Shown: one piece after another, positions 3,122 to 32,678 of the stretch | Position numbering within the stretch: the stretch's first letter is position 1 | Layout: each line of letters opens with the position of its first letter | From: an uncultured virus (IMG/VR IMGVR_UViG_3300035670_000050) | Lineage: Duplodnaviria; Heunggongvirae; Uroviricota; Caudoviricetes | Reading direction: 5' to 3' (one strand) | Length of the DNA: 64,000 nucleotides | IMG/VR virus record: IMGVR_UViG_3300035670_000050 | Span: 1-64,000 of that record | Translations under genes and position numbers: made by a program | Notes under the pieces: model-generated | Told to the model about the DNA's origin: nothing | What the model saw: the letters and a program-made list of their open reading frames with translations, nothing else | The model's database searches: none

Positions 3122-6013
3122 ATGACAACACAAGACTTTAGAATACCAAACAGAGCCACTGGAGTAGGAATTGCCAACACAAATATCAGTTTTGCAGACA
3201 TACAAACTGAATTTGGTGGTGCAAATCCAATAGGTTTAACTGAGTACTATTCGGGAGGCCCCTATGTCCCTACAGGTGTGAGTGGATATAGGGGTAATGT
3301 GCCTTCTAGTGGCGCAATTTCAGCACTTGATTTAGCAAGAGTTGATTTGGTTGGTATTTTCACAAGAAAATGGACTAGTTCAGCATCATTAGATACACCT
3401 GTTGGTGCGATTAATGATAATGGATTATTTTTCTTTAGTTCTACAATGTATGATACCAGTTTACAAGCATGGATGATGCCAACTGCCGTATTTGATCGTG
3501 ATGGACAAGAGTTATGGTCAATTAAGACAAATCTTAGTGGCGGTGGGGCTGGTACTACAAAATATATTCATACAACTTCTTTTAGTACTTCTAGTAATAA
3601 TTTTGTTGTTGGTGGTTATGATGAAAAAGCAAATACGAGTGATCGTGCTAGAGCATATCTGTTAGAATATGATGCTGGTTTTACGGATGTTCTTCATCGC
3701 CGTATACAACACAACACACTCTCTTTTAACAATGTTCACTGGACCAAAGATAAAAATAATGACGATGTTTATATGATTGCTACGCATGATGCAAGTGTAA
3801 ACGAACTTATTATTGTTAAATTTAATGGTCCAATTTCCAGTATTACTAGTTCATCTTCTATAGCTTGGGCAAGAAGATATCCATATAAGAATATAACTGG
3901 AAGTGTATTTTATCCAATACAAATTACTAAAATTAGTAGTTTCATTCATGAACCAGTTAGAAATCGTATATATGTGTCCATGATAGCAAATAATAACCCA
4001 ATATCAACTGGAGCTTTAAATAAGACTAGTGTATTAGTGATGGGTATTAATGCTGGAACTGGTGTAATTGAAAAATATGGTTTTGAATATCGTGGTGGAA
4101 CTTATCCGTCAACCACTTCAACTACTATTGATTATTATGAGATGGTACTGACTACTTCAGATTCAGAAGGTGCTGTTTATGGTAGTCAAGTTGAATATTT
4201 CAATAATGTTGATTTTTACACTGAAGCTTCTTATCATTGTAAATTTATGATGAATGGTTCTGGAGATCCTAATTCTACTGTTCGTGATGGTTATGAGATG
4301 TCAGCTGGATGGGTAGATGACACCACTTCATATGCTCAAACTTCTGGTCCTTTTTGGAGTCCTGAACCAAATACTTGGGATACCTTTAGAATACCAAAAG
4401 CGGCTTTTATTGTTGATGAAAATAGTCCAATACGTTTTACTGATGTTATATACAGAGAACCTGGTGATAATGGTCAAGTTTTGAATTTATTTTCTCAGTT
4501 ATTACAACCAGAAAATGAAACTTTACCAGTTACTGGTGGAAGAATAATTGTTGCGGATCTTAATGCTAAAAATACCACAGTTGGTGACGGTTCTGGACTT
4601 GCTAGTTGGTATGCAAGGGACAATACCTATACTGAAACCAATATGTTTTTAGATTTATATAATTATTGCTCGGCATTTCAACAGAGAACTAATAAGAAAA
4701 GAATTGGATTAGCTGCAACTTCTAAAACAAAAACTGGCACTAAAAATGATTTGATATTGACTATTATGCCAACATTAACAGAGATCGATTATTATCTCAC
4801 AAATGTTTGGTACCAAAAAGTTGGAGACCCTCCAAGATGGCCTGATCCACAAGCAAGATATGGTGATCAAATTTATGGTAATGTGACATATAAGACAATA
4901 TCAAACTATATGTATGATAGTGCTATAGTTTTGTATACGCCAAGTGGACTTACACAAAGAGAAGTAGAACCAGTTTATATGGATCCAAATGAATTTTCTG
5001 TGACACCAAGAACATGGTTGGGATGGTCTACTTCACAGGGTAATCCAATTACTAAGACAGCATCATATCCAAATACGACATATACTACGGCTCCTTCTTC
5101 ATCTACAAGTGAATACTATACAATAACTACAAATCAACAAGAATTGAATTTGAGAAATTGGTTGTTGGCACAAGGTTGGAATGGAGTTAACCCTGTATAT
5201 GTGACAGTCAATTCTGGTGTTTACATTTGGAGTGATAACACCTCTGTTCCAGCATTAACTATTGATGGTAATTTTCCAAACGGATTAGTGATAGAAAACT
5301 ATGGGTATATAATGGGTAGAGGAGGTAATGCTGGAAATGCTGGAAATGCTGTTCCTAGTCTTCAGAATGTTGCTGGTCAAAATGGTGGGCCAGCAATACT
5401 AACATCAGTTGAATTAAACATTAATAGTTCAAATGGATATATTGGAGGCGGTGGTGGAGGAGGTGCATCATATATAAACGACGTAAATGGCTATACCGTT
5501 GGTGGAGGCGGTGGTCAAGGTGGTGGTATTGGCGGAGTTGGTTATTTTTCTGGCAATTTTGCACAAGGTGGTGCTGGTGGATCAATTGGTAATTCTGGTG
5601 CAAACGGAACTGCCGTTTCTGGTCCAGATTTCAATATATTTGGAGGTGGCGGTGGCGGTAGAGTATTTCCTGGAGTTGGAGCTCCAGCAGTAACTAACCA
5701 ACAAGGTGGTGGTATTGGTGGAACAGGTGGAGGATCTGGTGCTTGTTCTTTAGCTTTTAACGTAACTCCCAAATCAAGTGGAGCCGGAGGTTCTGCTGGT
5801 GTAGCTGGAGGTAGTCCTTTGGTATACAAAAATGTTTATCCACACGGTGGTGCTGGAGGTGGTGGATTTGGTGCTGCTGGTGGGGGAATCTCTTTTAACA
5901 ACAGTGAAACACCAGCAAGTTCTGGTGGGCCATCTATACAAACAATTAACGGCGTTACAGTAACTTGGATTGGGGGTTTCCCAACTAATCGTGTTTTTGG
6001 AGCAGTAGTATGA
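3122..6013 (+). CDS. tail fibre/adhesin with gp38-like glycine-rich C-terminus
   Basis: IMGRGGNAG and repeated GGGGGG motifs as in T-even gp38 adhesins; CTAAATA late motif at 3086. Confidence 0.7.
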   Translation: MTTQDFRIPNRATGVGIANTNISFADIQTEFGGANPIGLTEYYSGGPYVPTGVSGYRGNVPSSGAISALDLARVDLVGIFTRKWTSSASLDTPVGAINDNGLFFFSSTMYDTSLQAWMMPTAVFDRDGQELWSIKTNLSGGGAGTTKYIHTTSFSTSSNNFVVGGYDEKANTSDRARAYLLEYDAGFTDVLHRRIQHNTLSFNNVHWTKDKNNDDVYMIATHDASVNELIIVKFNGPISSITSSSSIAWARRYPYKNITGSVFYPIQITKISSFIHEPVRNRIYVSMIANNNPISTGALNKTSVLVMGINAGTGVIEKYGFEYRGGTYPSTTSTTIDYYEMVLTTSDSEGAVYGSQVEYFNNVDFYTEASYHCKFMMNGSGDPNSTVRDGYEMSAGWVDDTTSYAQTSGPFWSPEPNTWDTFRIPKAAFIVDENSPIRFTDVIYREPGDNGQVLNLFSQLLQPENETLPVTGGRIIVADLNAKNTTVGDGSGLASWYARDNTYTETNMFLDLYNYCSAFQQRTNKKRIGLAATSKTKTGTKNDLILTIMPTLTEIDYYLTNVWYQKVGDPPRWPDPQARYGDQIYGNVTYKTISNYMYDSAIVLYTPSGLTQREVEPVYMDPNEFSVTPRTWLGWSTSQGNPITKTASYPNTTYTTAPSSSTSEYYTITTNQQELNLRNWLLAQGWNGVNPVYVTVNSGVYIWSDNTSVPALTIDGNFPNGLVIENYGYIMGRGGNAGNAGNAVPSLQNVAGQNGGPAILTSVELNINSSNGYIGGGGGGGASYINDVNGYTVGGGGGQGGGIGGVGYFSGNFAQGGAGGSIGNSGANGTAVSGPDFNIFGGGGGGRVFPGVGAPAVTNQQGGGIGGTGGGSGACSLAFNVTPKSSGAGGSAGVAGGSPLVYKNVYPHGGAGGGGFGAAGGGISFNNSETPASSGGPSIQTINGVTVTWIGGFPTNRVFGAVV

Positions 6014-6474
6014 TACAGAGACTTTCTTTAGATTTCTTAAAAGATAATGGAGTTTGTGATGAAGCTTATGAATGGACTAAAAATACATTTCAACTTGATT
6101 TTGAATATAGTCCGTACATAGATTGGGATTATGGTAGAAATGTTTTATTAGAATATATAGAAGCTAATCCACAAAGTACAACTGGGTGGTTAGAATGGTT
6201 TGATAAACTTAAAAAAAGTAAAGAGTATGTTTATTACAATGGAGAGCAAGTAACGATGTTAGAAAAATATCAAGTTTTTAATCCTATTACTGGAATGTAT
6301 ACTACATATGAAACTGAAAGTGAAATGCGCCAAAGTATAGTTGATGTTGTTAAACAAACTTTGGAAACTATGCAACCAAGAGTTGCTAAAGAGATTCAAA
6401 ATGAGAATGGAGATTCTGCTTGGGTTCCATTAAATTTGTTGGATATAGTTCAGATAACTTCAGAAGATCAATAA
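6010..6474 (+). CDS. hypothetical protein (tail fibre associated)
   Basis: Translationally coupled to the adhesin gene. Confidence 0.65.
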   Translation: MIQRLSLDFLKDNGVCDEAYEWTKNTFQLDFEYSPYIDWDYGRNVLLEYIEANPQSTTGWLEWFDKLKKSKEYVYYNGEQVTMLEKYQVFNPITGMYTTYETESEMRQSIVDVVKQTLETMQPRVAKEIQNENGDSAWVPLNLLDIVQITSEDQ

Positions 6475-6483
6475 GGAAATTAT

Positions 6484-6969
6484 ATGAGATTTTTTGCTAA
6501 AATAGATTCTAATGATAATGTATTGGAGTATCCAGTACCTGAAGGAATCTTGATTAAAGAGTATCCAGAGATAGCTAAAGTAGATGAAAATTTAGATAAA
6601 TTTTATGATGAAACTAAACCTTTGCCTAGTGGATATGTTTTAGTTCATCATTTACAAATAGAATATGATTGGATTGAATACGAATATAGTGAGGGTGTTC
6701 CAACTAAAGGTGATGATGGCAAATGGTATAAGAATCATGTTCCCACTCCACGATCTCCAGAGAGTAGACAAGAAATGCTCGATTATAAATCAAGTGAAGT
6801 GAGGAAGAAGAGAGACGAATTATTGGCAAAATCAGATTGGACTGTTATGCCGGATTCTCCTATTCCAGATGCCATTAAACAACAATGGATTGAATACCGA
6901 AAATTTTTAAGAGAAATACCTCAACAATCGGAATTCCCAAAGATAGTGAATTGGCCTATTCAACCGTAA
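6484..6969 (+). CDS. phage tail fibre assembly chaperone
   Basis: C-terminal RxxRDxLLxxSDWT...WxxYRxxLRxIPQQxxFPxxVxWP. Confidence 0.85.
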   Translation: MRFFAKIDSNDNVLEYPVPEGILIKEYPEIAKVDENLDKFYDETKPLPSGYVLVHHLQIEYDWIEYEYSEGVPTKGDDGKWYKNHVPTPRSPESRQEMLDYKSSEVRKKRDELLAKSDWTVMPDSPIPDAIKQQWIEYRKFLREIPQQSEFPKIVNWPIQP

Positions 6970-6998
6970 TTATTTTTGGCAAACATGAAAAAAGACGC

Positions 6999-7027
6999 TT
7001 GACTTTTACTAAATACAGTGATACACT
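6999..7027 (+). promoter_or_regulatory. sigma70 promoter of the tRNA array with nested late motif
   Basis: TTGACT-17-TACACT with extended TG; CTAAATA in the spacer. Confidence 0.7.
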
Positions 7028-7036
7028 TATAAAACT

Positions 7037-7153
7037 ATGAAAACTTCCTTACATTTCACTACAATTACTCTCAAGGCCAGTGCAACAGGCACATGGCAGG
7101 CAGAGTATCGCTCACCAAATTGCAATTTTAGTGATATTGGGGGGTTTGCGTAA
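7037..7153 (+). CDS. putative attenuator leader peptide (38 aa)
   Basis: MKTSLHFTTITLKASATGTWQAEYRSPNCNFSDIGGFA*; 3' end overlaps the antiterminator strand. Confidence 0.6.
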   Translation: MKTSLHFTTITLKASATGTWQAEYRSPNCNFSDIGGFA

Positions 7154-7177
7154 AAATAGTTTTAATCGTTTTTCACA

Positions 7178-7216
7178 CAAACCCCCGAACCTAAAAAATT
7201 CGGGGGTTTTTGTTTT
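7178..7216 (+). terminator. intrinsic terminator (attenuator)
   Basis: AAACCCCCGAA/TTCGGGGGTTT stem followed by a T-tract. Confidence 0.85.
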
Positions 7217-7217
7217 C

Positions 7218-7243
7218 CGCTCTTTAAAAATTTGTGTTGTTTA
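7218..7243 (+). promoter_or_regulatory. boxA-like antitermination site
   Basis: CGCTCTTTAAAAATTT resembles rrn boxA; 23-mer repeated at 7841-7863. Confidence 0.65.
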
Positions 7244-7245
7244 TT

Positions 7246-7323
7246 AGGGGATTAGCCAAGCTGGTCTAAGGCATCGGATTTTGAATCCGACATTCACTGG
7301 TTCGAATCCAGTATCCCCCACCA
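7246..7323 (+). tRNA. tRNA-Gln(UUG)
   Basis: Cloverleaf, TTG anticodon, encoded CCA. Confidence 0.9.
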
Positions 7324-7325
7324 AT

Positions 7326-7420
7326 CCTTGGATAGTTTAATGGTAAAACTCCGAGCTTATACCTCGGCGATGCCTCTAGATGAGGGGATGATCTAGGTTC
7401 GAATCCTAGTCCAAGGACCA
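7326..7420 (+). tRNA. tRNA-Ile(UAU) with long variable arm
   Basis: CCGAG-CT TAT AC-CTCGG anticodon arm; ~25-nt variable region; CCA. Confidence 0.75.
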
Positions 7421-7493
7421 TATGAAAGCACATTGTAGGGGTTGCTCCCGCACAAGATACCATGGCTCTACTTGGCAATGTGTTTCCATATGG
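7418..7493 (+). ncRNA. inverted-repeat clamp element 1
   Basis: CCATATGAAAGCACATTG...CAATGTGTTTCCATATGG. Confidence 0.65.
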
Positions 7494-7583
7494 AAGTGTG
7501 GCAGAGTCCGGTTTATTGCAACAGTCTTGAAAACTGTCGGTCATGAAAGTGGCCCGTGAGTTCGAATCTCACCGCTTCCACCA
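7492..7583 (+). tRNA. tRNA-Ser(UGA)
   Basis: Class II cloverleaf, CCA. Confidence 0.92.
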
Positions 7584-7587
7584 ATTC

Positions 7588-7677
7588 GGAGAATGGGCAG
7601 GATGGTAATGCAGCGGATTGCTAATCCGTAGATTCTAGAAATAGGGTCACAGGGTTCGACTCCCTGATTCTCCACCA
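7588..7677 (+). tRNA. tRNA-Ser(GCU)
   Basis: Class II cloverleaf, CCA. Confidence 0.92.
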
Positions 7678-7682
7678 GTTAT

Positions 7683-7760
7683 AGTACGGTACCAGAGCGG
7701 TCTAATGGCGGAGCCTGCAAAACTCTTGATTCGTCGGTTCGAATCCGACCCGTACTTCCA
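7683..7760 (+). tRNA. tRNA-Cys(GCA)
   Basis: GCA anticodon, U73 discriminator, CCA. Confidence 0.88.
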
Positions 7761-7763
7761 CTC

Positions 7764-7816
7764 TGTTGTTTTTTTACAACAGTAGTAGTTGACAATTCGT
7801 AGGTTTAGTGTATAAT
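7764..7816 (+). promoter_or_regulatory. early promoter cassette driving the second tRNA block
   Basis: TGTTG-N8-CAACA; TTGACA-16-TATAAT. Confidence 0.8.
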
Positions 7817-7837
7817 GATCTACATGATGTGATGAAT

Positions 7838-7863
7838 TGTTCTTTAAAAATTTGTGTTGTTTA
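7838..7863 (+). promoter_or_regulatory. boxA-like antitermination site
   Basis: TGTTCTTTAAAAATTTGTGTTGTTTA. Confidence 0.65.
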
Positions 7864-7866
7864 CTT

Positions 7867-7943
7867 GCACCGTTCGTCTAGCGGCCTAGGACATCTCCCT
7901 TTCACGGAGAAGATCAGGGGTTCAAATCCCCTACGGTGTACCA
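7867..7943 (+). tRNA. tRNA-Glu(UUC)
   Basis: Cloverleaf, CCA. Confidence 0.92.
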
Positions 7944-7948
7944 AATAC

Positions 7949-8036
7949 GGGTGGTGCCCCGGTCAGCGGTCTGTAAAACCGTCGGCATAATAAGATCGGA
8001 AGTTGCCTCGTGGAGCGTTACCATCACCACCCACCA
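7949..8036 (+). tRNA. atypical tRNA-Tyr(GUA)-like RNA (8/4 fold, vestigial D arm)
   Basis: 8-bp acceptor GGGTGGTG/CACCACCC; GCGGT-CT GTA AA-ACCGT arm; long variable region; ACCA end. Confidence 0.6.
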
Positions 8037-8125
8037 TATTGAAGCGCATTGACGAGTCCGACTAGGCATCGGAAACAGCAGCGGGTGTCTTCCGTATCTG
8101 CTTCGACCAGTGTGTTTCAATATGG
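8034..8125 (+). ncRNA. inverted-repeat clamp element 2
   Basis: CCATATTGAAGCGCATTG...CAGTGTGTTTCAATATGG. Confidence 0.65.
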
Positions 8126-8245
8126 TAGTAGGGCAGGTATGAAGCCGGTCATTGGTCCTCTGAGAGATTGGTGACTCTAGAGCAAGCCAACTACAAGGCC
8201 TTAATCCCGGTGCTCTGCAGTGGATCGCAACCACTCCTGCTACCA
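8124..8245 (+). ncRNA. tRNA-like RNA (acceptor stem + T arm, large insert)
   Basis: GGTAGTAGG/CCTGCTACC stem; AGTGG-ATCGCAA-CCACT T-like arm. Confidence 0.5.
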
Positions 8246-8247
8246 TA

Positions 8248-8326
8248 CCATACTGAAGTGCATTTGGGTGAAGCTCTGAAAGGCTATGCTCGAGTAGGGT
8301 AGTAGTCTAAGTGCGCTTCAATATGG
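8248..8326 (+). ncRNA. inverted-repeat clamp element 3
   Basis: CCATACTGAAGTGCATTT...AAGTGCGCTTCAATATGG. Confidence 0.65.
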
Positions 8327-8338
8327 TAAAGTTTATTT

Positions 8339-8424
8339 GGGCTTCTGGTGTTTGCTGGGGGCACGACTCTGAGTAGAGCAATCGAAAAGAGAAAGCGTTG
8401 GTTCGATTCCAACGAAGCCCACCA
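8339..8424 (+). ncRNA. tRNA-like RNA with aberrant anticodon arm
   Basis: GGGCTTC/GAAGCCC acceptor, D arm, canonical GTTCGATTC T arm, ACCA; no 7-nt anticodon loop. Confidence 0.6.
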
Positions 8425-8528
8425 TATTCAAGCACATTCTTAGTCGCCCGGCCCAGCCATTGGGGCTGCCAGCGGGGACCCGTAAGGGATACTAACAGAA
8501 AGTCTACAACGAGTGTGCTTGAATATGG
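8422..8528 (+). ncRNA. inverted-repeat clamp element 4
   Basis: CCATATTCAAGCACATT...AGTGTGCTTGAATATGG. Confidence 0.65.
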
Positions 8529-8674
8529 GAGTAAGTGGGGACCGAAAAGTCCTCGGGCTGATCCCAGAACACGAATACCTGAAGCGTGTATAAAGGCGGC
8601 GAGCCTTTGACGAAGACACAGGCGTGATTCGAGCGACAATGACGATACGATTGTGCTGGAGTCGTAACCAGCAA

Positions 8675-8782
8675 CCATATTGAAGCACACTAAGGCTAGA
8701 TGGCGCCGGCCTTGGGAGTGGACCTAGCATCGTCTTTCGGCGGTGTGGGCAGTTTCGATACTGTCAGTGTGCTTCAATATGG
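8675..8782 (+). ncRNA. inverted-repeat clamp element 5
   Basis: Perfect 17-bp IR CCATATTGAAGCACACT/AGTGTGCTTCAATATGG. Confidence 0.7.
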
Positions 8783-8941
8783 TTTGCTGACTGCTAGTAG
8801 ATGAAACGCCTAATGGCAAAGTAATCTAAGTTAGATGGTGTGTCAAGATGTTTCCCATTGACTCTCGACGATGGGAATGGCTGAATAGGTAGAGAGCAAT
8901 AAAGCCCGACACATTGGCCCGACGGACGGGAACAAGCAACA

Positions 8942-9004
8942 CCATATTCGAACACATTACTAAGAGTCCAGGTTCAGAGCGTGGCATAGTGTGTTTCAAT
9001 ATGG
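8942..9004 (+). ncRNA. inverted-repeat clamp element 6
   Basis: CCATATTCGAACACATTA...TAGTGTGTTTCAATATGG. Confidence 0.65.
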
Positions 9005-9078
9005 GGAGTTAGTTCAGTTGGGAGAACGCCTGCTTTGCAAGCAGGAGGTCATCGGTTCGAACCCGATACTCTCCACCA
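9003..9078 (+). tRNA. tRNA-Ala(UGC)
   Basis: G3.U70 pair, TGC anticodon, CCA. Confidence 0.95.
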
Positions 9079-9191
9079 AGATGCACAGCGTCGCTTTACG
9101 CTGTGGCAGAATGTGCCTCTCGATCCTAGGAACGATGCCTCTCAAACTGCGACTAGAGTCCTATTGCAAGTAGGACATAGCACCAAATTTT

Positions 9192-9266
9192 GGGCGTATA
9201 GCTTAGGGGTTAAAGCAGTAGACTTTTAATCTATTGACCGGAGTTCGATTCTCCGTGCGCCTACCA
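9192..9266 (+). tRNA. tRNA-Lys(UUU)
   Basis: Cloverleaf, CCA. Confidence 0.92.
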
Positions 9267-9273
9267 GTTTTAT

Positions 9274-9348
9274 GGTTCCATAGTATATCGGCGAGTATAG
9301 CGCCCTGTCACGGCGCAGGAACGAGTTCGAATCTCGTTGGGACCGCCA
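9274..9348 (+). tRNA. tRNA-Asp(GUC)
   Basis: Cloverleaf, G73, CCA. Confidence 0.92.
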
Positions 9349-9353
9349 AGTTT

Positions 9354-9427
9354 TGCGGGTTAGAGAAATAGTATCTCGGTAGTCTCATAAGCTACAGTTA
9401 GTCGTGCAATTCGGCTACCCGCTACCA
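9354..9427 (+). tRNA. tRNA-Met(CAU), initiator-like, divergent
   Basis: CAT anticodon, 1x72 mismatch, atypical T loop. Confidence 0.7.
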
Positions 9428-9622
9428 AACGTGCCGTCTAATCAACGGCTAGTGTGGTCCGCATGTCGAGAAGTGGTGTGATACCCACAGGACCTTACCA
9501 TTTGGAGCAAATGGCGCTGGCAATGCGAGAATTCTCTTTGGTCGTGAAGTGGGTGGAAGGTGTCGTTGAAGGGTTCGAAACTGGAGACACTATAATTACC
9601 ACCGCAGAGAGGAAGCACCTGT

Positions 9623-9697
9623 TCCAGAGTAGATCAGCGGTAGATCAGCGGACTGTTAATCCGTGTGTCGTAGGTTCGATCCCTACCTCTGGAGCCA
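9623..9697 (+). tRNA. tRNA-Asn(GUU)
   Basis: Cloverleaf, CCA. Confidence 0.92.
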
Positions 9698-9866
9698 TTA
9701 GTGAGAGTCTGTAGAACGAAGTGCCTAACCAGCAGCCAGACTATCGTGGTAGTACTCATCTTTGCATGAATCCACGCCGTTGGTGCGAGACTTGTGGTGA
9801 GTCTAAGGGATGCAGAGAGGACTGAAAAGTGTCCTTAAACAGATATGATAGTACTCTCACTAATGG
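9695..9866 (+). ncRNA. unknown structured RNA closed by a 14-bp stem
   Basis: CCATTAGTGAGAGT...ACTCTCACTAATGG between two tRNAs. Confidence 0.55.
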
Positions 9867-9941
9867 CGATGTAGCATAGCGGTCAAATGCAGTTCCTTCA
9901 TACGGAAAAGATCGAAGGCTCGAATCCTTCCATCGCCACCA
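9865..9941 (+). tRNA. tRNA-Met(CAU), elongator
   Basis: Cloverleaf, CAT anticodon, CCA. Confidence 0.85.
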
Positions 9942-9946
9942 GTTTT

Positions 9947-10021
9947 GCCCCTGTAGCTCAGTGGTAGAGTTCTCGCCTTGTAAGCGAGCGGTCGGGAGTT
10001 CAAATCTCTCCGGGGGCACCA
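9947..10021 (+). tRNA. tRNA-Thr(UGU)
   Basis: Cloverleaf, CCA. Confidence 0.92.
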
Positions 10022-10030
10022 AAGTTTCGT

Positions 10031-10107
10031 CTGGGTATAGCACAGCCAGGTAGTGCGCCTGCTTTGGGAGCAGGAGGTCGGGAGTTCGATCCTCTCTACC
10101 CAGACCA
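10031..10107 (+). tRNA. tRNA-Pro(UGG)
   Basis: Cloverleaf, CCA. Confidence 0.92.
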
Positions 10108-10114
10108 TAATTAT

Positions 10115-10189
10115 ACCACCTTAGTGTACTGAATAGCACGCAATGCTACGGACATTGTAGAAAGGGTTTGATTCCTTTAGGTGGTGCCA
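10115..10189 (+). tRNA. tRNA-Arg(ACG)
   Basis: CAATG-CT ACG GA-CATTG arm, CCA. Confidence 0.85.
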
Positions 10190-10191
10190 AT

Positions 10192-10265
10192 CCTTCCTTA
10201 GCTCAATGGCAGAGCAAGCGGTTGATAACCGCTAGACGGTGGATCGTAACCATCAGGAAGGACCA
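10192..10265 (+). tRNA. tRNA-Ile(GAU)
   Basis: Cloverleaf, variant T loop ATCGTAA, CCA. Confidence 0.85.
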
Positions 10266-10282
10266 TTATAAGTAGTTTTAAT

Positions 10283-10356
10283 CTCGGTGTCGTATAAAGG
10301 CATTACGCTGGTCTCCAAAACCAGTCATGGCAGTTCGATTCTGTCCACCGAGGCCA
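10283..10356 (+). tRNA. tRNA-Trp(CCA)
   Basis: Cloverleaf, CCA. Confidence 0.9.
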
Positions 10357-10370
10357 ATTAAGGAGATATC

Positions 10371-10838
10371 ATGTTCAAGATAAATTTACAAGAAGTGAAA
10401 GATTACATCTCAAGACAATCGCCAGAAACAAAAATTTATCTTGGATGTGATTCTGAAAGATTAAGAGTGAATGAAGTGTGGCATGCTGACTATATAATTG
10501 CTATAGTTGTTCACAAAGATGGAAAACACGGTTGCAAACTTTTTGGTGAAGTTGTTCGTGAAAGAGACTATGACCAAAAAGAAGATCGTCCGAGATACCG
10601 TTTGATGAATGAAGTATACAAGGTATCTGAAATGTATTTAAAGTTGGCTGATGTTCTGGAAGGTCGTGATGTAGAAGTCCACCTTGATATCAACCCAAGT
10701 GAAATGCATGGTTCAAATTGCGTGATCAATGAAGCAATTGGTTATATTCGTGGAACTTGTAATGTAATTCCTATGGTAAAACCAAGAGCGTTTGCGGCAT
10801 CATACGCTGCAGATCGTTACAAAAGTTTAGCTGCTTAA
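10371..10838 (+). CDS. RNase H-like YkuK-family protein
   Basis: IYLGCDS...RLMNEV...EVHLDIN...A(S)YAAD motifs. Confidence 0.75.
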   Translation: MFKINLQEVKDYISRQSPETKIYLGCDSERLRVNEVWHADYIIAIVVHKDGKHGCKLFGEVVRERDYDQKEDRPRYRLMNEVYKVSEMYLKLADVLEGRDVEVHLDINPSEMHGSNCVINEAIGYIRGTCNVIPMVKPRAFAASYAADRYKSLAA

Positions 10839-10847
10839 GGAGAAAAT

Positions 10848-11156
10848 ATGATTAAGAAAATGTTACAAAAACTTGGCATGTCAGTAGAAGGTGATATGCT
10901 CGGATCAATCACAGAGTTTGCTGGAACTAGAGGTGTTCGTACTTGGGCACCTTGTAGTGGTCAAATCATGCAAGTAAAAGGAAACGAAGCACTCTTTTCC
11001 ATTATTGGTACAAAGTATGGCGGTGATGGTAGAACGACATTTGCGCTACCTGATCTAAGGCCTCTTGATAAGAATGGTAAAGTAATTGAATGGAGAGATT
11101 ATTCTGGTCCGATGAAAATGATTTGTATTCAAGGCGGTTATCCACCTTGGGATTAA
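10848..11156 (+). CDS. phage tail collar domain protein
   Basis: GSITEFAG...CSGQ...ALFSIIGTKYGGDGRTTFALPDLR. Confidence 0.85.
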   Translation: MIKKMLQKLGMSVEGDMLGSITEFAGTRGVRTWAPCSGQIMQVKGNEALFSIIGTKYGGDGRTTFALPDLRPLDKNGKVIEWRDYSGPMKMICIQGGYPPWD

Positions 11157-11161
11157 AATAA

Positions 11162-11235
11162 GCGGCTGTAGTTTAATGGTAAAACCACTGCCTTCCAAGC
11201 AGAAGTTAAGAGTTCGATTCTCTTTAGCCGCTCCA
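11162..11235 (+). tRNA. tRNA-Gly(UCC)
   Basis: Cloverleaf, U73, CCA. Confidence 0.92.
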
Positions 11236-11244
11236 AATGCTCTT

Positions 11245-11320
11245 GGTGTCCTTAGTGTAGTGGTCTGCACTTCTTGCTGTGAACGAGAGAGTATGAGTTC
11301 GATCCTCATAGGACACCCCA
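11245..11320 (+). tRNA. tRNA-His(GUG)
   Basis: G-1:C73 pair, GTG anticodon, CCA. Confidence 0.88.
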
Positions 11321-11321
11321 C

Positions 11322-11396
11322 GCATCGTTAGCTCAATAGTAGAGCGTCTGCCTTACAAGCAGAGGGTAGAGGGAGCGTAACCTTCACGGTGCACCA
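11322..11396 (+). tRNA. tRNA-Val(UAC)
   Basis: Cloverleaf, variant T loop AGCGTAA, CCA. Confidence 0.85.
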
Positions 11397-11397
11397 T

Positions 11398-11473
11398 GCG
11401 ACTTTAGCTGATGTGGTCATAGCAGTGGCCTGAAGAGCCATGGAAAGAGGTTCGATTCCTCTAGGTCGCACCA
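11398..11473 (+). tRNA. tRNA-Phe(GAA)
   Basis: Cloverleaf, CCA. Confidence 0.9.
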
Positions 11474-11475
11474 AT

Positions 11476-11552
11476 GCCTCGGTGATGAAATTGGTAAACA
11501 TGCTTGCCTTAGAAGCAAGATTCTGAGAGTTCGAATCTCTCCTGAGGCACCA
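11476..11552 (+). tRNA. tRNA-Leu(UAG) lacking the long variable arm
   Basis: Leu-type D arm, TAG anticodon, short variable loop. Confidence 0.85.
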
Positions 11553-11597
11553 ATATTACCTGTAAACAACACAAATTTATGTTATAATGTTTTTATT

Positions 11598-11680
11598 GCG
11601 AGTGTGGTGGAACGGTATACACAGCAGACTTAAAATTTGCCGCCTCTGGATTGAGGGTTCGAATCCCTCCACTCGCACCA
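11598..11680 (+). tRNA. tRNA-Leu(UAA)
   Basis: Class II cloverleaf, CCA; TGnTATAAT at 11580-11588 upstream. Confidence 0.92.
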
Positions 11681-11685
11681 AATAT

Positions 11686-11760
11686 ACCACTGTCGTTCAA
11701 CGGATAGGACATGGGTCTTCTAAACCTAGAATAGGGGTTCGATTCCTCTCAGTGGTGCCA
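11686..11760 (+). tRNA. tRNA-Arg(UCU)
   Basis: Cloverleaf, CCA. Confidence 0.9.
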
Positions 11761-11771
11761 TAAATACTTAT

Positions 11772-12164
11772 ATGAAGAAAATTATTGTAAACGGTACATT
11801 TGATATATTACATGTTGGTCATTTAGAGCTCCTAAACTTTGCGAGAAGTTTGGGAGATTTTCTTTTGGTTTGCATCGATACGGATCGTCGAGTGAAAGAA
11901 CTAAAGGGTTCTGAAAGACCAATAAATAATCAGTATGAAAGAAAAATGATGTTGGAAAACCTCAAGGCTGTAGATGAGGTAAGATTGTTTGATAGTAAAG
12001 AAGAATTGATTGACTTCATCAAAGAATGTGATATAATGGTGAAAGGTTCTGATTATAGAGGTAAGAGTATTACAGGTGAAAAATATTGTAAACAGGTGAT
12101 TTATTTTGATCGAATTGAAGAATATTCCACAACAAAAAAAATTCAAGATATTATTAGTCGGTGA
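11772..12164 (+). CDS. hldC: heptose-1-phosphate adenylyltransferase (RfaE domain II/HldC-like)
   Basis: NGTFDILHVGH (HxGH), KGxxRPIN, KGSDY, YSTT. Confidence 0.85.
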   Translation: MKKIIVNGTFDILHVGHLELLNFARSLGDFLLVCIDTDRRVKELKGSERPINNQYERKMMLENLKAVDEVRLFDSKEELIDFIKECDIMVKGSDYRGKSITGEKYCKQVIYFDRIEEYSTTKKIQDIISR

Positions 12165-12864
12165 TACTTGTATTGATATCTATCAGTACGGTAATGTCAC
12201 TAAACTAAGTCCTGAAGCTCCAGTACCAATTTTTGTTCCAGAAAAACAAGAATTAAAATTAGGTATGGCTTCTAATGTTGGCAATAATCTATTGGCATTG
12301 AATTGTGATGTCGATATGGTAGTTGGCGCACTTTCTAAGAAAACAAGACTCATTGATCTCAAAAGTAATCAGCACCTTTTACGCATAGATGAAGATGTTG
12401 AATCAAAAGAACTTACTTTAAACTTGAAAGATAAAAAATATGACGCCATTGTGTTTTCTGACTACAACAAGGGATGTGTTTCTTATGGACTTATCGAACA
12501 GACAAGACAAGAACAAACTTGCCCAATATTCATTGATACTAAAAAGACAGAACTTTCTAGATTCGAAGGCTGTTTTGTTAAAATCAACAGCAGAGAATAT
12601 CAACAGGCAAAGTCATATTGTTCTGACTTGATTGTTACTCTTGGTGACAAAGGTGCTACATATAAAAACAAATTCTTTAGTGCAAAGCCTGTAGAAGTGT
12701 CTGATGTATGTGGTGCAGGTGATACTTTTCTTGCAGCATTGGTATATAACTATCTGCTAACAAATCATGTAGGTTCTGCAATAGAGTTTGCAAACAAAGC
12801 ATCATCAATTACTGTTCAACATATGGGTGTGTATGCACCGACATTGGATGAGATATGCGATTAG
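12106..12864 (+). CDS. hldA: heptose-7-phosphate kinase (RfaE domain I/HldA-like, PfkB family)
   Basis: LSPEAPVP, SDYNKG, DVCGAGDTF. Confidence 0.88.
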   Translation: MIELKNIPQQKKFKILLVGDTCIDIYQYGNVTKLSPEAPVPIFVPEKQELKLGMASNVGNNLLALNCDVDMVVGALSKKTRLIDLKSNQHLLRIDEDVESKELTLNLKDKKYDAIVFSDYNKGCVSYGLIEQTRQEQTCPIFIDTKKTELSRFEGCFVKINSREYQQAKSYCSDLIVTLGDKGATYKNKFFSAKPVEVSDVCGAGDTFLAALVYNYLLTNHVGSAIEFANKASSITVQHMGVYAPTLDEICD

Positions 12865-31586: not shown

Positions 31587-31611
31587 CAAAATAAATAGTT
31601 TCTGTTATAGT
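31583..31611 (+). promoter_or_regulatory. tmRNA promoter
   Basis: TTGACA-17-TATAGT; ATAAATA in spacer. Confidence 0.75.
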
Positions 31612-31617
31612 AGTAAT

Positions 31618-31950
31618 ATGATCGTATGAAGTTAATTGAAAGGTGTTCTGGACGAGGGTTCGATTCCCTCCAGGTCCACCAGAAAGCATACTATGAAGAT
31701 CGGTCAAGGACTGCCGGTAGGCTGCATAATAGCAGATAGCCCCGACTGAAAAAGTGCAGATTTAGTATGCTTCCTAATGGGCCTGACCTGGTTTCGACAG
31801 GGCAAAGAGTAGAAAGATGGACGATCCGACACAGAGAGTCGTAAAAAGTAAATAAAATAAACGCAAACGATGAGCGTTTCGCTTTAGCTGCCTAAGGCAT
31901 GCTGAGCTGAGGTTTCGCCGACTGTACCTTATCACCCAATCAGTCGGCAC
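31618..31950 (+). ncRNA. ssrA: circularly permuted (two-piece) tmRNA, tag ANDERFALAA
   Basis: 3' tRNA-like part GGACGAGGGTTCGATTCCCTCCAGGTCCACCA ends 31681 and precedes 5' part GGGCCTGACCTGGTTTCGAC at 31779; G3.U70; tag 31863-31895. Confidence 0.92.
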
Positions 31951-31973
31951 TTATTTTTTTATGGGAAAACATT

Positions 31974-32678
31974 GTGAAAGTATACATCAGCAAATATCGT
32001 AATCATTGGTTGTCTCCATATACAATTTTGACCAAAATTTGTTTTTGGGAAAAAGACAAAGACATCATCTATAATCTTGATGACGATCCAAAAAACAAGT
32101 ACGAGAAGTTTGTCAATCTTCTGAATCCTGTTTGTGTTGGGTTTCAGAAGTTTCTTGATTTTGTTCATCCAAGAATTGAGTATGTCAAGATTGACAAGTA
32201 CGACACTTGGAACATGGATACAACATTGTCTCCAATCATCCTGCCAATGCTCAAGCAGTTGAAAAAGACTAAGCATGGTTCTCCTATGGTAGACTTAGAG
32301 GATGTACCAGAACATCTTCGTTGCATCACACATGAAGAATATGATGCACAAGAAACTTTTGATTTCTATAAGCAAGACGAACCAAAAGAAAGTCATTGTG
32401 ATATTCATGCACGATGGGAATGGGTTCTTGATGAAATGATTTGGGCATTTGAACAGTTATGTAACGATGACTATGATGCACAATTCCATACTGGTGTACA
32501 TGATATGAAGTCTGTACCTTGCGAGTGGGATGAGAATGGTAAACCAACTCTTTATACTTTTGAGAGGGGACCAAATCACACCGCAGAGTTTGATCGTGAA
32601 GGTTACGAAAAGTACAATGAACGAATCAATAACGGTACAAGACTGTTTGGTAAGTACTACAGAAATCTGTGGGACTAA
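31974..32678 (+). CDS. conserved phage hypothetical protein
   Basis: DTWNMDxTL...RWEWVLDEMIWAFE...LFGKYYRNLWD. Confidence 0.8.
   Translation: MKVYISKYRNHWLSPYTILTKICFWEKDKDIIYNLDDDPKNKYEKFVNLLNPVCVGFQKFLDFVHPRIEYVKIDKYDTWNMDTTLSPIILPMLKQLKKTKHGSPMVDLEDVPEHLRCITHEEYDAQETFDFYKQDEPKESHCDIHARWEWVLDEMIWAFEQLCNDDYDAQFHTGVHDMKSVPCEWDENGKPTLYTFERGPNHTAEFDREGYEKYNERINNGTRLFGKYYRNLWD

What the first reader, a model, noticed from the sequence alone, without database searches (positions are those of the whole stretch)
6999..7245. Leader-peptide attenuator gating a phage tRNA array: a possible sensor of general tRNA depletion
Seen: a promoter (6999-7027) is followed by a 38-codon ORF (7037-7153, MKTSLHFTTITLKASATGTWQAEYRSPNCNFSDIGGFA) that uses 19 of 20 amino acids (only Val missing; 6 Thr). 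Its last codons GGGGGTTTG (7140-7148) are complementary to CAAACCCCC (7178-7186). That second strand is also the 5' arm of an 11-bp intrinsic terminator (7179-7209 plus T-tract) directly before the first tRNA. Established: this mutually exclusive 2:3/3:4 layout is how trp/his/thr-type ribosome-coupled attenuators work, though those use runs of one amino acid. Inference: a ribosome reaching the stop codon masks 7140-7153 and the terminator forms. Stalling at almost any codon (starvation, or host anticodon nucleases such as PrrC or PARIS) frees the antiterminator and turns on phage tRNA supply. I do not know of a described phage tRNA attenuator of this kind.
Basis: partly seen in the sequence, partly recalled or inferred. 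Interest (0 to 1): 0.9.

Follow-up and report, generated by a model that had tools for sequence, protein, structure and literature searches.

The report
All-amino-acid leader switch before phage tRNAs
An uncultured phage places a tiny translated test gene that uses 19 of the 20 amino acids, joined to a switchable transcription stop, directly in front of its tRNA genes, so it probably makes more tRNA when ribosomes read slowly.

Summary

It is not a chance layout. I found 80 distinct copies of the same module in uncultured phage contigs, each placed ahead of tRNA genes. All 61 terminators with a tRNA within 150 nt have the ORF-end/terminator-arm pairing (-14.9 kcal/mol or better). None of the 15 without a tRNA does.

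The terminator and the alternative pairing both covary. In 14 of 14 sequences with the changed base in the shared strand, both partners changed with it.

The ORF looks translated. It starts leaderless (34 of 60 distinct ORFs) or behind a Shine-Dalgarno sequence. pN/pS is 0.45 in frame against 1.06 and 1.26 out of frame.

35 of 57 distinct peptides hold all 20 amino acids. Random ORFs do so in 0 to 0.5% of cases.

Best reading: a ribosome-mediated attenuator that senses general decoding speed.

Limits:
- There are no expression data.
- 30 of 46 relatives have a second promoter after the terminator.
- The last codons cannot be sensed.

Four literature searches found no such control of tRNA genes. 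This scan has noted the class before on other DNA.

The parts
6999..7027 (+). Promoter P1: -35 TTGACT, 17-nt spacer, extended -10 (TG, then TACACT)
   Evidence: scores it 9/12 with TG. The same -35, spacing and -10 are kept in relatives at 9-12 of 12.
7037..7153 (+). Leader ORF of 38 codons, with 19 of 20 amino acids (no Val). It has no Shine-Dalgarno sequence. The ATG lies 9 nt after the -10, so the mRNA is leaderless or nearly so.
   Evidence: Relatives: 34 of 60 distinct ORFs start at an ATG 3-9 nt after the -10 (27 of them at 6 nt), and 26 start behind an SD-like motif. Pooled pN/pS is 0.45 in frame against 1.06 and 1.26 in the shifted frames.
7056..7136 (+). Structured middle of the leader. 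It holds predicted hairpins, including arms 7104-7110 and 7130-7136. It may be a pause or timing element.
   Evidence: Predicted folds. Covariation in a common register is inconclusive: 62.6% of cells paired against 59.4% with partners slid by 3.
7139..7150 (+). Strand A, the 5' strand of the antiterminator. It is the last four codons of the ORF and abuts the stop codon 7151-7153.
   Evidence: in the nascent RNA up to 7198, 7140-7148 pairs with 7178-7186 and 7150 pairs with 7176; z -4.45.
7151..7175 (+). Stop codon and spacer. The spacer forms the apical part of the antiterminator hairpin.
   Evidence: The local A..B hairpin 7128-7198 has -21.2 kcal/mol.
7176..7189 (+). Strand B. It is shared between the antiterminator (with A) and the terminator (with C).
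   Evidence: All 14 of 14 sequences with C at the shared column have G in both partner columns.
7179..7216 (+). Intrinsic terminator: an 11-bp stem, a 9-nt A-rich loop and a T-tract
   Evidence: One search gives -16.4 kcal/mol. Across 66 distinct cores, 99.3% of cells pair and 7 of 9 pairs show compensatory changes; 0 of 500 shuffles reach the observed scores.
7219..7234 (+). boxA-like box. GCTCTTTA at 7219-7226 equals positions 2-9 of E. coli rrn boxA. The box recurs at 7839-7854, before tRNA-Glu.
   Evidence: 7 matches in the window against 1.6 expected, and the two best lie before the two tRNA blocks. The box is kept in nearly all relatives. The boxA core was derived from passages of PMC3177189.
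7246..7760 (+). The first five tRNA genes (Gln, Ile, Ser, Ser, Cys). These are the ones with no promoter of their own after the terminator.
   Evidence: Within the 34-nt gap the best promoter match is 5 of 12.
7789..7816 (+). Promoter P2 (TTGACA, 16 nt, TATAAT) restarting transcription before tRNA-Glu and the rest of the array
   Evidence: scores it 12 of 12. The same type of promoter follows the terminator in 30 of 46 distinct relatives.

Best explanation
This is a ribosome-mediated transcription attenuator placed at the head of the phage's tRNA operon.

Proposed mechanism:
- RNA polymerase starts at P1, and a ribosome begins on the first AUG of the nearly leaderless transcript.
- The last codons of the 38-codon ORF (strand A, 7139-7150) can pair with strand B (7176-7189). 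Strand B is also the 5' arm of a strong intrinsic terminator (B:C, 7179-7209).
- If the ribosome keeps pace and sits on the last codons or the stop codon when B emerges, A is masked. B then pairs with C and transcription ends at about 7216.
- If the ribosome is held up earlier in the ORF, or never loads, A is free. It pairs with B first and the terminator cannot form.
- The polymerase then runs over a boxA-like site into tRNA-Gln, Ile, Ser, Ser and Cys, and onward.

The ORF carries one or a few codons of nearly every amino acid rather than a run of one. It therefore reports general decoding speed, not the supply of one amino acid. The loop is self-limiting: slow decoding gives more phage tRNA, which gives faster decoding and more termination.

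Shown here: the anatomy, its conservation, the covariation, the coding signature, the amino-acid completeness and the link to tRNA genes.
Inferred: translation itself, the timing, the direction of the response and the natural stimulus.
For: Anatomy and folding in the window:
- The elements sit as described.
- The nascent RNA without strand C folds into A:B. The local hairpin is -21.2 kcal/mol, against -19.1 for the terminator alone.
- Masking 7125-7166, as a ribosome at the stop codon would, gives the terminator.

Conservation:
- The module was found in 80 distinct elements with 66 distinct cores.
- They came from relatives fetched through a neighbouring gene and through two terminator-loop patterns.

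Link to tRNA genes:
- 44 of 48 distinct loci from the exact-pattern scan have a same-strand tRNA within 94 nt. The other 4 contigs end within 153 nt.
- All 61 of 61 terminators with a tRNA within 150 nt have A:B of -14.9 kcal/mol or better (median -20.2).
- All 15 of 15 terminators with the same loop but no tRNA have only -1.4 to -13.2.

Covariation:
- B:C has 99.3% of cells paired and 7 of 9 pairs compensatory; 0 of 500 shuffles reach the observed scores.
- A:B has 83% paired, against 28-66% when partners are slid, and 24 double-change cells; 0 of 500 shuffles reach the covariation score.
- There is three-way covariation in 14 of 14 sequences, drawn from several peptide clusters.

Translation:
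- Of 60 distinct ORFs, 34 have a leaderless ATG (27 exactly 6 nt after the -10). The other 26 start at ATG, GTG or TTG behind an SD-like motif.
- pN/pS is 0.45 in frame against 1.06 and 1.26 out of frame. It is below the shifted frames in 7 of 7 informative groups.

Amino-acid completeness:
- 35 of 57 distinct peptides have 20 of 20 amino acids, and 47 have at least 19.
- 8 of 16 clusters hold a complete member.
- Random ORFs in the same DNA reach 20 of 20 in 0 of 1370 cases (31-35 aa), 3 of 1037 (36-40 aa) and 5 of 1049 (41-47 aa).
- With the C-terminal tail held fixed, P is 0.0003-0.1 per cluster representative.

Other:
- The upstream gene is not conserved.
- In 16 of 46 distinct gaps no promoter was found between terminator and tRNA: 6 are under 29 nt, down to 2 nt, and 10 longer ones have no match of 9 of 12 or better.
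Against: - There is no expression or ribosome data. No RNA run holding the stretch was listed, so translation and readthrough remain untested.
- In 30 of 46 distinct relatives a strong promoter (10 of 12 or better) lies between the terminator and the first tRNA. In the window a 12-of-12 promoter restarts after five tRNAs. The switch therefore adds to tRNA transcription rather than being its only gate.
- Some amino acids occur only in or within about 13 nt of strand A, where a stalled ribosome would mask A: Val in 40 of 60 ORFs, Trp in 32, Ala in 18 and Gly in 11. Whole-ORF completeness overstates what can be sensed.
- The window's ATG is 9 nt from the -10, not 6. A 2-3 nt 5' UTR without an SD may translate poorly.
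- The pairing of the 5' end with A, seen in the window's full-length fold, is not conserved. Median z is -1.3, and 11 of 58 have z below -2.
- The mid-ORF hairpin shows no clear covariation.
- Leader codons fit the phage's own tRNAs no better than ordinary genes do: 30 of 38 against 74%.
- One subfamily has 30-codon leaders with only 17-18 amino-acid kinds.
- The peptide clusters share descent, so the statistics are not fully independent.
Confidence: 0.7

Rival explanations
1. The module is an autonomous small transcription unit: promoter, micro-protein gene or small RNA, and its own terminator. It merely sits next to the tRNA array, which is transcribed from its own promoter. The terminated RNA of about 180 nt, or the peptide, would act in trans.
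For: - 30 of 46 distinct relatives have a strong promoter after the terminator, and the window has one after five tRNAs.
- The RNA is strongly folded, z -4.52.
- The terminator loop is A-rich and conserved while its stem covaries. That could be a binding site.
- pN/pS of 0.45 would also fit a functional peptide.
Against: - It does not explain why the ORF's end is kept complementary to the terminator's 5' arm through compensatory changes.
- It does not explain why that pairing separates tRNA-linked terminators from others, 61 of 61 against 0 of 15.
- In 16 of 46 distinct gaps no promoter was found; six of them are 2-27 nt long.
- The peptide sequence is not conserved between clusters, while its amino-acid completeness is.
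- No protein family matches it.
- An attenuator-derived small RNA could coexist with attenuation.
Confidence: 0.12
2. It is a peptide-specific arrest sensor. The nascent peptide stalls the ribosome in response to a ligand or state, as TnaC or SecM do, through the conserved Glu-Tyr-Arg and Ser-Trp stretches. Codon supply would not be what is read.
For: The codons for Glu-Tyr-Arg are nearly invariant in the window and in the two largest peptide clusters. That is more conserved than a mere need for those amino acids would require.
Against: - The motif is absent from other clusters that keep the full architecture, for example the leaders in L075, L023, L105 and L188.
- The conserved codons coincide with the arms of a predicted RNA hairpin, which could explain their conservation at the nucleotide level.
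- This reading does not explain the amino-acid completeness.
Confidence: 0.08
3. It is the terminator of the upstream tail-fibre operon plus a chance ORF.
For: The module lies 30 nt after the stop of a tail-fibre assembly gene. No other terminator separates them.
Against: - A conserved promoter lies between the gene and the terminator.
- The upstream gene has no relative next to any other copy. The upstream ORFs of 12 relatives fall into at least five unrelated groups, none like the window's.
- The ORF and the A:B pairing are conserved.
Confidence: 0.02
4. It is a direct RNA sensor, T-box-like or a riboswitch. The leader RNA would bind a tRNA or a metabolite, and translation would play no part.
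For: The leader is structured and it controls RNA genes.
Against: - No Rfam family reaches threshold. There is no T-box hit, and the best leader match is Thr_leader at 26.9 bits against a gathering score of 55, covering only the terminator part.
- The coding signature and the conserved start signals argue for translation.
Confidence: 0.03

Closest known systems
Leader-peptide transcription attenuators of enterobacterial amino-acid operons (trpL, hisL, leuL, pheL; the multivalent thrL and ilvGMEDA leaders). Recalled textbook knowledge.
   Same: - A promoter-proximal short ORF.
- An intrinsic terminator before the regulated genes.
- An antiterminator that shares a strand with the terminator.
- A ribosome at the end of the ORF favours termination, and a ribosome stalled earlier favours readthrough.
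   Different: - There is no run of one amino acid's codons. Instead 19-20 different amino acids occur about once each.
- The regulated genes are tRNA genes of a phage, not biosynthetic genes.
- Many members are leaderless.
- The 1:2 anti-antiterminator is not conserved, so the default state without translation is probably readthrough.
Leaderless polycysteine short ORFs acting as cysteine-responsive attenuators in mycobacteria (bioRxiv 10.1101/834739; I saw only the title and the start of the abstract in the listing).
   Same: A leaderless short ORF at the 5' end of a transcript controls the genes downstream through its own translation.
   Different: It is specific for one amino acid and regulates cellular protein-coding operons. 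I did not read its mechanism.
uORF attenuators that sense general ribosome stalling by antibiotics (Term-seq ribo-regulators of resistance genes, bmrCD, topAI/toiL). Recalled, not looked up.
   Same: Any slowing of the ribosome on a short leader ORF switches an RNA fold or Rho access and turns on the downstream genes.
   Different: Those respond to drugs and control resistance or stress genes. They are not selected to contain all amino acids, and none controls tRNA genes.
rrn operon leaders with tandem promoters and boxA (NusB/NusE antitermination). PMC3177189, abstract from the listing and passages read.
   Same: - An 8-nt boxA core sits just before the stable-RNA genes.
- A second promoter sits close by.
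- The downstream region is long, untranslated and structured RNA.
   Different: rrn leaders hold no translated ORF and no attenuator. Here boxA lies after the terminator, so the stop-or-go decision comes first.

Membership tests
Ribosome-mediated leader-peptide transcription attenuator | A short ORF with translation start signals close to the promoter | tested here: met
   In the window the ATG lies 9 nt after the -10. Of 60 distinct ORFs, 34 are leaderless and 26 are SD-led.
Ribosome-mediated leader-peptide transcription attenuator | An intrinsic terminator between the leader ORF and the regulated genes | tested here: met
   -16.4 kcal/mol, 11 bp plus a T-tract. 99.3% of cells pair across 66 cores.
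Ribosome-mediated leader-peptide transcription attenuator | An alternative antiterminator helix that shares a strand with the terminator | tested here: met
   Window z is -4.45. 83% of cells pair, with 24 double changes. Three-way covariation holds in 14 of 14. The split by tRNA context is 61 of 61 against 0 of 15.
Ribosome-mediated leader-peptide transcription attenuator | The stop codon is placed so that a terminating ribosome masks the antiterminator's 5' strand | tested here: met
   The stop ends -11 to +19 nt (median +5) from the end of strand A and 23-31 nt before the terminator stem, in 60 ORFs. This is geometry only.
Ribosome-mediated leader-peptide transcription attenuator | A run or cluster of codons for the amino acid being sensed | tested here: not met
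   There is no run. The leader has 19 kinds of residue in 38 codons, and relatives have 20 of 20 in 35 of 57 peptides.
Ribosome-mediated leader-peptide transcription attenuator | A 1:2 pause or anti-antiterminator hairpin upstream | tested here: inconclusive
   The pairing of the 5' end with A is predicted in the window but is not conserved. The mid-ORF hairpin is predicted in most relatives without clear covariation.
Ribosome-mediated leader-peptide transcription attenuator | Readthrough depends on translation of the leader | not testable with these tools
   No RNA run holding the stretch was listed. No cultured relative carries the module.
Rfam Thr_leader (RF00506) | A score at or above the gathering threshold of 55 bits | tested here: not met
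   26.9 bits, E 0.073, covering only 7162-7214, which is the terminator part.
T-box or other curated RNA leader in Rfam | Any Rfam cis-regulatory family matching 6999-7245 | tested here: not met
   One search scanned 6000-12500 at E up to 1. The only matches over 6999-7245 are Thr_leader at 26.9 bits (threshold 55) and a microRNA family at 22.3 bits (threshold 53); neither reaches its threshold.
rrn-type boxA (NusB/NusE site) | An 8-9 nt single-stranded core matching the boxA consensus just upstream of stable-RNA genes | tested here: met
   7219-7226 equals E. coli positions 2-9 as derived from PMC3177189. A second copy with one mismatch lies at 7839-7846. Binding of the Nus factors cannot be tested here.

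The most novel reading that the evidence does not exclude
Large phages run their tRNA operons as a closed feedback loop on decoding capacity.

- A test ORF is kept by selection to contain every amino acid. It measures how fast ribosomes can read any codon in the infected cell.
- It opens a terminator in front of the phage's tRNA genes whenever any one aminoacyl-tRNA runs short. Causes could be host tRNA decay after takeover, or anticodon nucleases and other tRNA-cutting defences.
- A boxA site then makes the polymerase processive through the array.

This would be the first attenuator known to control tRNA genes. It would also be a built-in, inducible counter-measure to tRNA-targeting immunity.
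Probability: 0.4. Interest if true: 0.92.

Novelty: new variant of a known kind. Interest (0 to 1): 0.85.

Why it matters
Why phages carry tRNA genes has been argued for fifty years. The proposals include codon compensation, replacement of degraded host tRNA, and escape from anticodon nucleases. How those genes are regulated is hardly known.

A switch that reads general decoding speed and feeds back on tRNA synthesis would show that the phage treats tRNA supply as a regulated quantity. It would also say what the phage measures. The defence-escape idea becomes testable with a simple reporter: does cutting one tRNA species open the switch?

It also extends the classic attenuation mechanism in three ways:
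- from one amino acid to all of them
- from protein-coding operons to stable-RNA genes
- to leaderless mRNAs.

The element is compact, about 220 nt. It could serve as a genetically encoded sensor of translation stress.

Tried and rejected
Searches that found nothing:
- **RNA evidence:** no RNA holder listed. One run search returned 20 rows, 19 of them DNA guesses and one guessed-RNA row with a 0.05 share, which I did not lay. I did not use read laying, because DNA contigs cannot show RNA ends.
- **Cultured relatives:** blastn of the window's module and of a common relative's module against 50,697 phage records gave only short chance matches. tblastn with two leader peptides gave one weak hit (E 0.2) and nothing.
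- **The two closest isolates:** by a neighbouring protein these are Stenotrophomonas phage DLP_6 and Synechococcus phage BUCT-ZZ01. Neither holds the module in the 18.5-kb stretch fetched around that protein's gene (no profile hit at E up to 10; terminator scan).
- **Own record:** the 120-kb record holds a single copy and no tRNA beyond the window.
- **Protein families:** the peptides match no NCBIfam family, and no Pfam family above 12 bits.

Ideas tested and dropped or left open:
- **Codon matching between leader and phage tRNAs:** no excess in the window.
- **Small-array subfamily:** 30-codon leaders lacking Ala, Gly and Ile head arrays of 11-14 tRNAs that lack Ala and Ile but hold Gly. By my hand calculation the overlap is not significant (hypergeometric P about 0.2).
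- **Substitutions at once-only residues:** columns holding an amino acid that occurs once change less than others, 0.29 against 0.49 events per column, P = 0.02. RNA constraints confound this, so I give it little weight.
- **Whole-length RNAalifold:** it found only the terminator.

Rows dropped from counts:
- made no start call for 7 of 80 elements: L081b, L032, L085, L089, L095, L121 and L212.
- One search gave implausible calls of 1-18 codons for L031, L034 and L158. Under the looser rule these ten have 9-46 codons and 8-20 kinds of residue.
- L230, a terminator after a 110-aa gene followed by a promoter and tRNA-Glu, was left out of the family.

See steps_to_tell.
Full report
**1. What is in the window**

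The window is the first 64 kb of a 120,163-base virus record estimated 68% complete. Genes 3122-6969 encode a tail fibre, an unknown protein and a tail-fibre assembly protein. Thirty bases after that operon's last stop codon lies the region of the finding.

In order, it holds:
- a sigma-70-type promoter, TTGACT at 6999-7004, a 17-nt spacer and an extended -10 (TG, then TACACT at 7022-7027), scored 9 of 12
- an ATG at 7037 opening a 38-codon ORF that ends at TAA 7151-7153
- an intrinsic terminator with 11-bp arms at 7179-7189 and 7199-7209, a 9-nt A-rich loop and a T-tract to 7216, at -16.4 kcal/mol
- 34 nt further on, tRNA-Gln at 7246, the first of 24 tRNA genes that run to 11760.

**2. Is it more than chance in this one sequence?**

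- The duplex between the 81 nt upstream and the terminator's 5' side is -22.7 kcal/mol. Dinucleotide shuffles give -11.5, sd 2.5, so z is -4.45, and 0 of 100 shuffles are as good.
- The whole leader folds with z -4.52.
- 19 kinds of residue in 38 has P = 0.025 under the phage's own protein composition. That is suggestive only.

**3. Folding states**

- RNA 7034-7198 (strand C not yet made): A pairs with B, 7140-7148 with 7178-7186, extended through 7150:7176 and a spacer stem.
- Local energies: the A..B hairpin is -21.2 kcal/mol, the terminator alone is -19.1, and the minimum for 7128-7216 is the antiterminator form at -24.0.
- With 7125-7166 made unavailable, as under a ribosome at the stop codon, B pairs with C and the terminator forms.
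- In the full-length RNA without any ribosome, the 5' end (7038-7049) pairs with A and the terminator forms.

The last state would be a trp-like "1:2" state. It is not conserved (section 7).

**4. Relatives**

No cultured phage has similar DNA here.

Through a 155-aa protein encoded inside the array I fetched 80 loci from uncultured viral contigs, out of 519 relatives found. Many carry the same module before their first tRNA.

Two scans of viral contigs with the terminator's loop added more:
- The exact pattern gave 75 stretches, 48 of them distinct.
- The degenerate pattern gave 116 stretches, with flanking DNA fetched for 80 loci.

The degenerate scan also returned unrelated terminators behind ordinary genes. 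These served as controls.

In all I had 98 distinct terminator regions. Eighty were filed as family elements, with 66 distinct cores.

**5. The link with tRNA genes**

- Of the 48 distinct loci from the exact pattern, 44 have a same-strand tRNA 3-94 nt after the T-tract. The other 4 contigs end within 153 nt.
- I then sorted all terminators by context alone. The 61 with a tRNA within 150 nt all have an A:B duplex of -14.9 kcal/mol or better (median -20.2).
- The 15 with at least 230 nt of downstream DNA and no tRNA have -1.4 to -13.2.
- The remaining 22 had too little downstream DNA in the excerpt used. Most of those are followed by tRNAs.

The upstream gene is not part of the module.
- The window's tail-fibre assembly protein has no relative next to any other copy.
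- The upstream ORFs of 12 relatives fall into at least five unrelated groups.

This removes the reading that the hairpin is just the tail operon's terminator.

**6. Covariation**

I used a MAFFT alignment of the 66 distinct cores.
- Terminator: 99.3% of cells paired, 7 of 9 pairs with compensatory changes, and 0 of 500 shuffles reaching the observed scores.
- A:B helix in one fixed register: 83.0% paired against 28-66% when the partner is slid; 4 of 11 pairs and 24 cells changed on both sides; 0 of 500 shuffles reaching its covariation score or paired fraction.
- The measures that count pairs or pair types do not exceed the shuffles. Indels shift the register in divergent members.
- Most telling is the shared strand. 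All 14 sequences with C instead of A at its column 87 have G in the partner column of A and also in the partner column of C. They come from several peptide clusters, the window among them.

**7. Other RNA elements**

- A hairpin in the middle of the ORF is predicted in most relatives. On a whole-length alignment its pairs are no better than slid controls, 62.6% against 59.4%. I leave it open; it may be a pause hairpin.
- Pairing of the transcript's 5' end with A has a median z of -1.3, and 11 of 58 have z below -2. I do not count it as conserved.
- Without a conserved anti-antiterminator, the default state without a ribosome is probably readthrough.

**8. Is the ORF translated?**

Of 60 distinct ORFs:
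- 34 start at an ATG 3-9 nt after the -10 hexamer, 27 of them at exactly 6 nt. That places the transcription start on the A of the AUG, giving a leaderless mRNA.
- 26 start at ATG, GTG or TTG behind an SD-like motif, after a 5' UTR of about 20-40 nt.

The same ORF kept under two different start mechanisms is hard to explain unless it is read.

Pooled pN/pS is 0.45 in the ORF's frame against 1.06 and 1.26 in the two shifted frames. The in-frame value is the lowest in 7 of 7 informative groups. Pairs within a group are not independent, and I ran no significance test.

The window's own ATG is 9 nt from the -10, so its transcript may carry 2-3 extra bases. That is a weakness.

**9. Amino-acid completeness**

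I used a start rule fixed in advance: a leaderless ATG, or an SD-led start. It made a call for 73 of 80 elements, giving 57 distinct peptides.
- 35 peptides contain all 20 amino acids and 47 contain at least 19.
- Single linkage at 45% identity gives 16 clusters. Eight hold a complete member and four more reach 19.
- One cluster of 30-codon leaders has 17-18 kinds.
- Three clusters are rule failures, L031, L034 and L158.

Random ORFs of the same lengths in the same DNA are complete in:
- 0 of 1370 cases at 31-35 aa
- 3 of 1037 cases at 36-40 aa
- 5 of 1049 cases at 41-47 aa.

The ORF's tail is dictated by strand A, which supplies Gly, Phe, Cys and Val for free. I therefore repeated the test with the tail fixed. 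P stays between 0.0003 and 0.1 for the 13 cluster representatives. I chose the most complete member of each cluster, which favours the result.

The part of the ORF that can signal also holds more kinds than expected in all 13 representatives, though at P of 0.05 or better in only 7.

Between clusters the peptides are barely alignable, yet the full set is kept.

**10. A correction to "any codon"**

A ribosome waiting at a codon covers about 12-13 nt downstream. Codons inside A, or closer to it than that, therefore cannot free A. By this geometry some residues occur only in the blind zone:
- Val in 40 of 60 ORFs
- Trp in 32
- Ala in 18
- Gly in 11.

In the window the sensing part is codons 1-29 and holds 18 kinds. 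Asp is blind and Val is absent. So the element samples most amino acids, not all.

**11. How much does it gate?**

- In the window the gap between the T-tract and tRNA-Gln holds no promoter; the best match is 5 of 12. The first five tRNAs depend on readthrough, or on transcription arriving from upstream.
- After them a 12-of-12 promoter (7789-7816) restarts before tRNA-Glu.
- Among 46 distinct gaps in relatives, 30 hold such a promoter about 35 nt before the first tRNA. Ten hold none, and six are too short for one, down to 2 nt.

The attenuator is therefore one of two inputs, much like the tandem promoters of rRNA operons.

**12. boxA**

Between the terminator and tRNA-Gln lies a conserved box.
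- There are 7 matches in the window against 1.6 expected, and the two best sit before the two tRNA blocks.
- Its core, 7219-7226, equals positions 2-9 of E. coli rrn boxA. I derived that from PMC3177189, which gives the Aquifex 12-mer and states that E. coli differs at positions 1, 6 and 9 (passages).
- The full 13-letter E. coli consensus I know only from memory.

The box probably loads the Nus factors, so that polymerase that has passed the switch reads through the long untranslated array. That is inference.

**13. Leader composition and tRNA set**

- In the window, leader codons are no better served by the phage's own tRNAs than ordinary genes are: 30 of 38 against 74% under strict wobble, and 37 of 38 against 95% under relaxed wobble.
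- The 30-codon leaders lack Ala, Gly and Ile. They head small arrays of 11-14 tRNAs that lack Ala, Ile, Leu, Val, Phe and Lys but include Gly. The trend fits but is not significant.
- In L081 a 24-codon leader with five Leu codons precedes two tRNA-Leu genes, and a complete leader follows.

**14. Mechanism and odds**

I put 0.7 on a ribosome-mediated attenuator that lowers P1-driven tRNA transcription when translation is fast and raises it when decoding is slow or ribosomes are lacking. The rivals are an autonomous small gene or small RNA (0.12), a peptide-specific arrest sensor (0.08), a direct RNA sensor (0.03) and a mere upstream terminator (0.02).

**15. Known or new**

Four full-text searches found no paper on attenuation or leader peptides controlling phage or cellular tRNA genes. 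One search combining 'leader peptide', 'all 20 amino acids' and 'attenuator' returned nothing.

The nearest published relatives I saw are:
- the classic amino-acid operon leaders (recalled)
- leaderless polycysteine ORF attenuators of mycobacteria (listing only).

The library lacks most subscription journals, so absence from it is not proof.

This scan has noted the same class on other DNA in at least 66 genomes, and boxA at the head of phage tRNA arrays as well. It has no note on this genome. I reached the completeness and boxA observations before reading those notes and tested them here on my own data.

I file the element as a new variant of a known kind.

Noticed in passing
window 7419-7492, 8033-8126, 8255-8330, 8422-8528, 8673-8784, 8940-9005: Between the tRNA genes lie at least six units of one design. 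Arms of 15-23 nt form an inverted repeat that begins right after a CCA-like end, and they enclose G+C-rich inserts of 56-74 nt. This may be a family of structured RNAs embedded in the array. No Rfam match at E up to 1 names them. The three clearest pairs are 84-100% complementary.
   Followed up: partly
window 7219-7234 and 7839-7854: A boxA-like box lies just before each tRNA block. Its core is identical to E. coli rrn boxA positions 2-9 at the first site and has one mismatch at the second. It suggests that the array recruits the host's rRNA antitermination factors.
   Followed up: partly
window 7754-7816; relatives, e.g. L090 gap after the terminator: A short A+T-rich inverted repeat sits immediately upstream of the -35 of the second promoter. 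It occurs in the window and in most relatives. It may be a regulator binding site.
   Followed up: no
window 8339-8421: A tRNA-like stretch scores 31.9 bits with the Rfam tRNA model but is not called by ARAGORN. The array otherwise lacks a tRNA-Tyr, which relatives have.
   Followed up: no
window 31589-31986: ARAGORN calls a tmRNA-like gene, marked with an asterisk, with the tag peptide ANDERFALAA. It lies far from the tRNA array.
   Followed up: no
window 7190-7198 and the same loop in relatives: The 9-nt A-rich loop of the terminator is nearly invariant across relatives while the stem beneath it covaries. The loop itself seems to be under selection. It could be a protein or Hfq-type binding site, or a kinetic feature.
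   Followed up: no
L282 (Stenotrophomonas phage DLP_6, record 103134-113834): In this cultured relative, eight annotated small ORFs of 56-253 codons each end 6-12 nt before a tRNA gene. This is a different arrangement from the module studied here, and it has no terminator.
   Followed up: no
L081 2810-2956 and 3276-3481: One relative carries two modules in tandem. A 24-codon leader with five Leu codons sits before two tRNA-Leu genes, and a complete 47-codon leader follows before the main array.
   Followed up: partly
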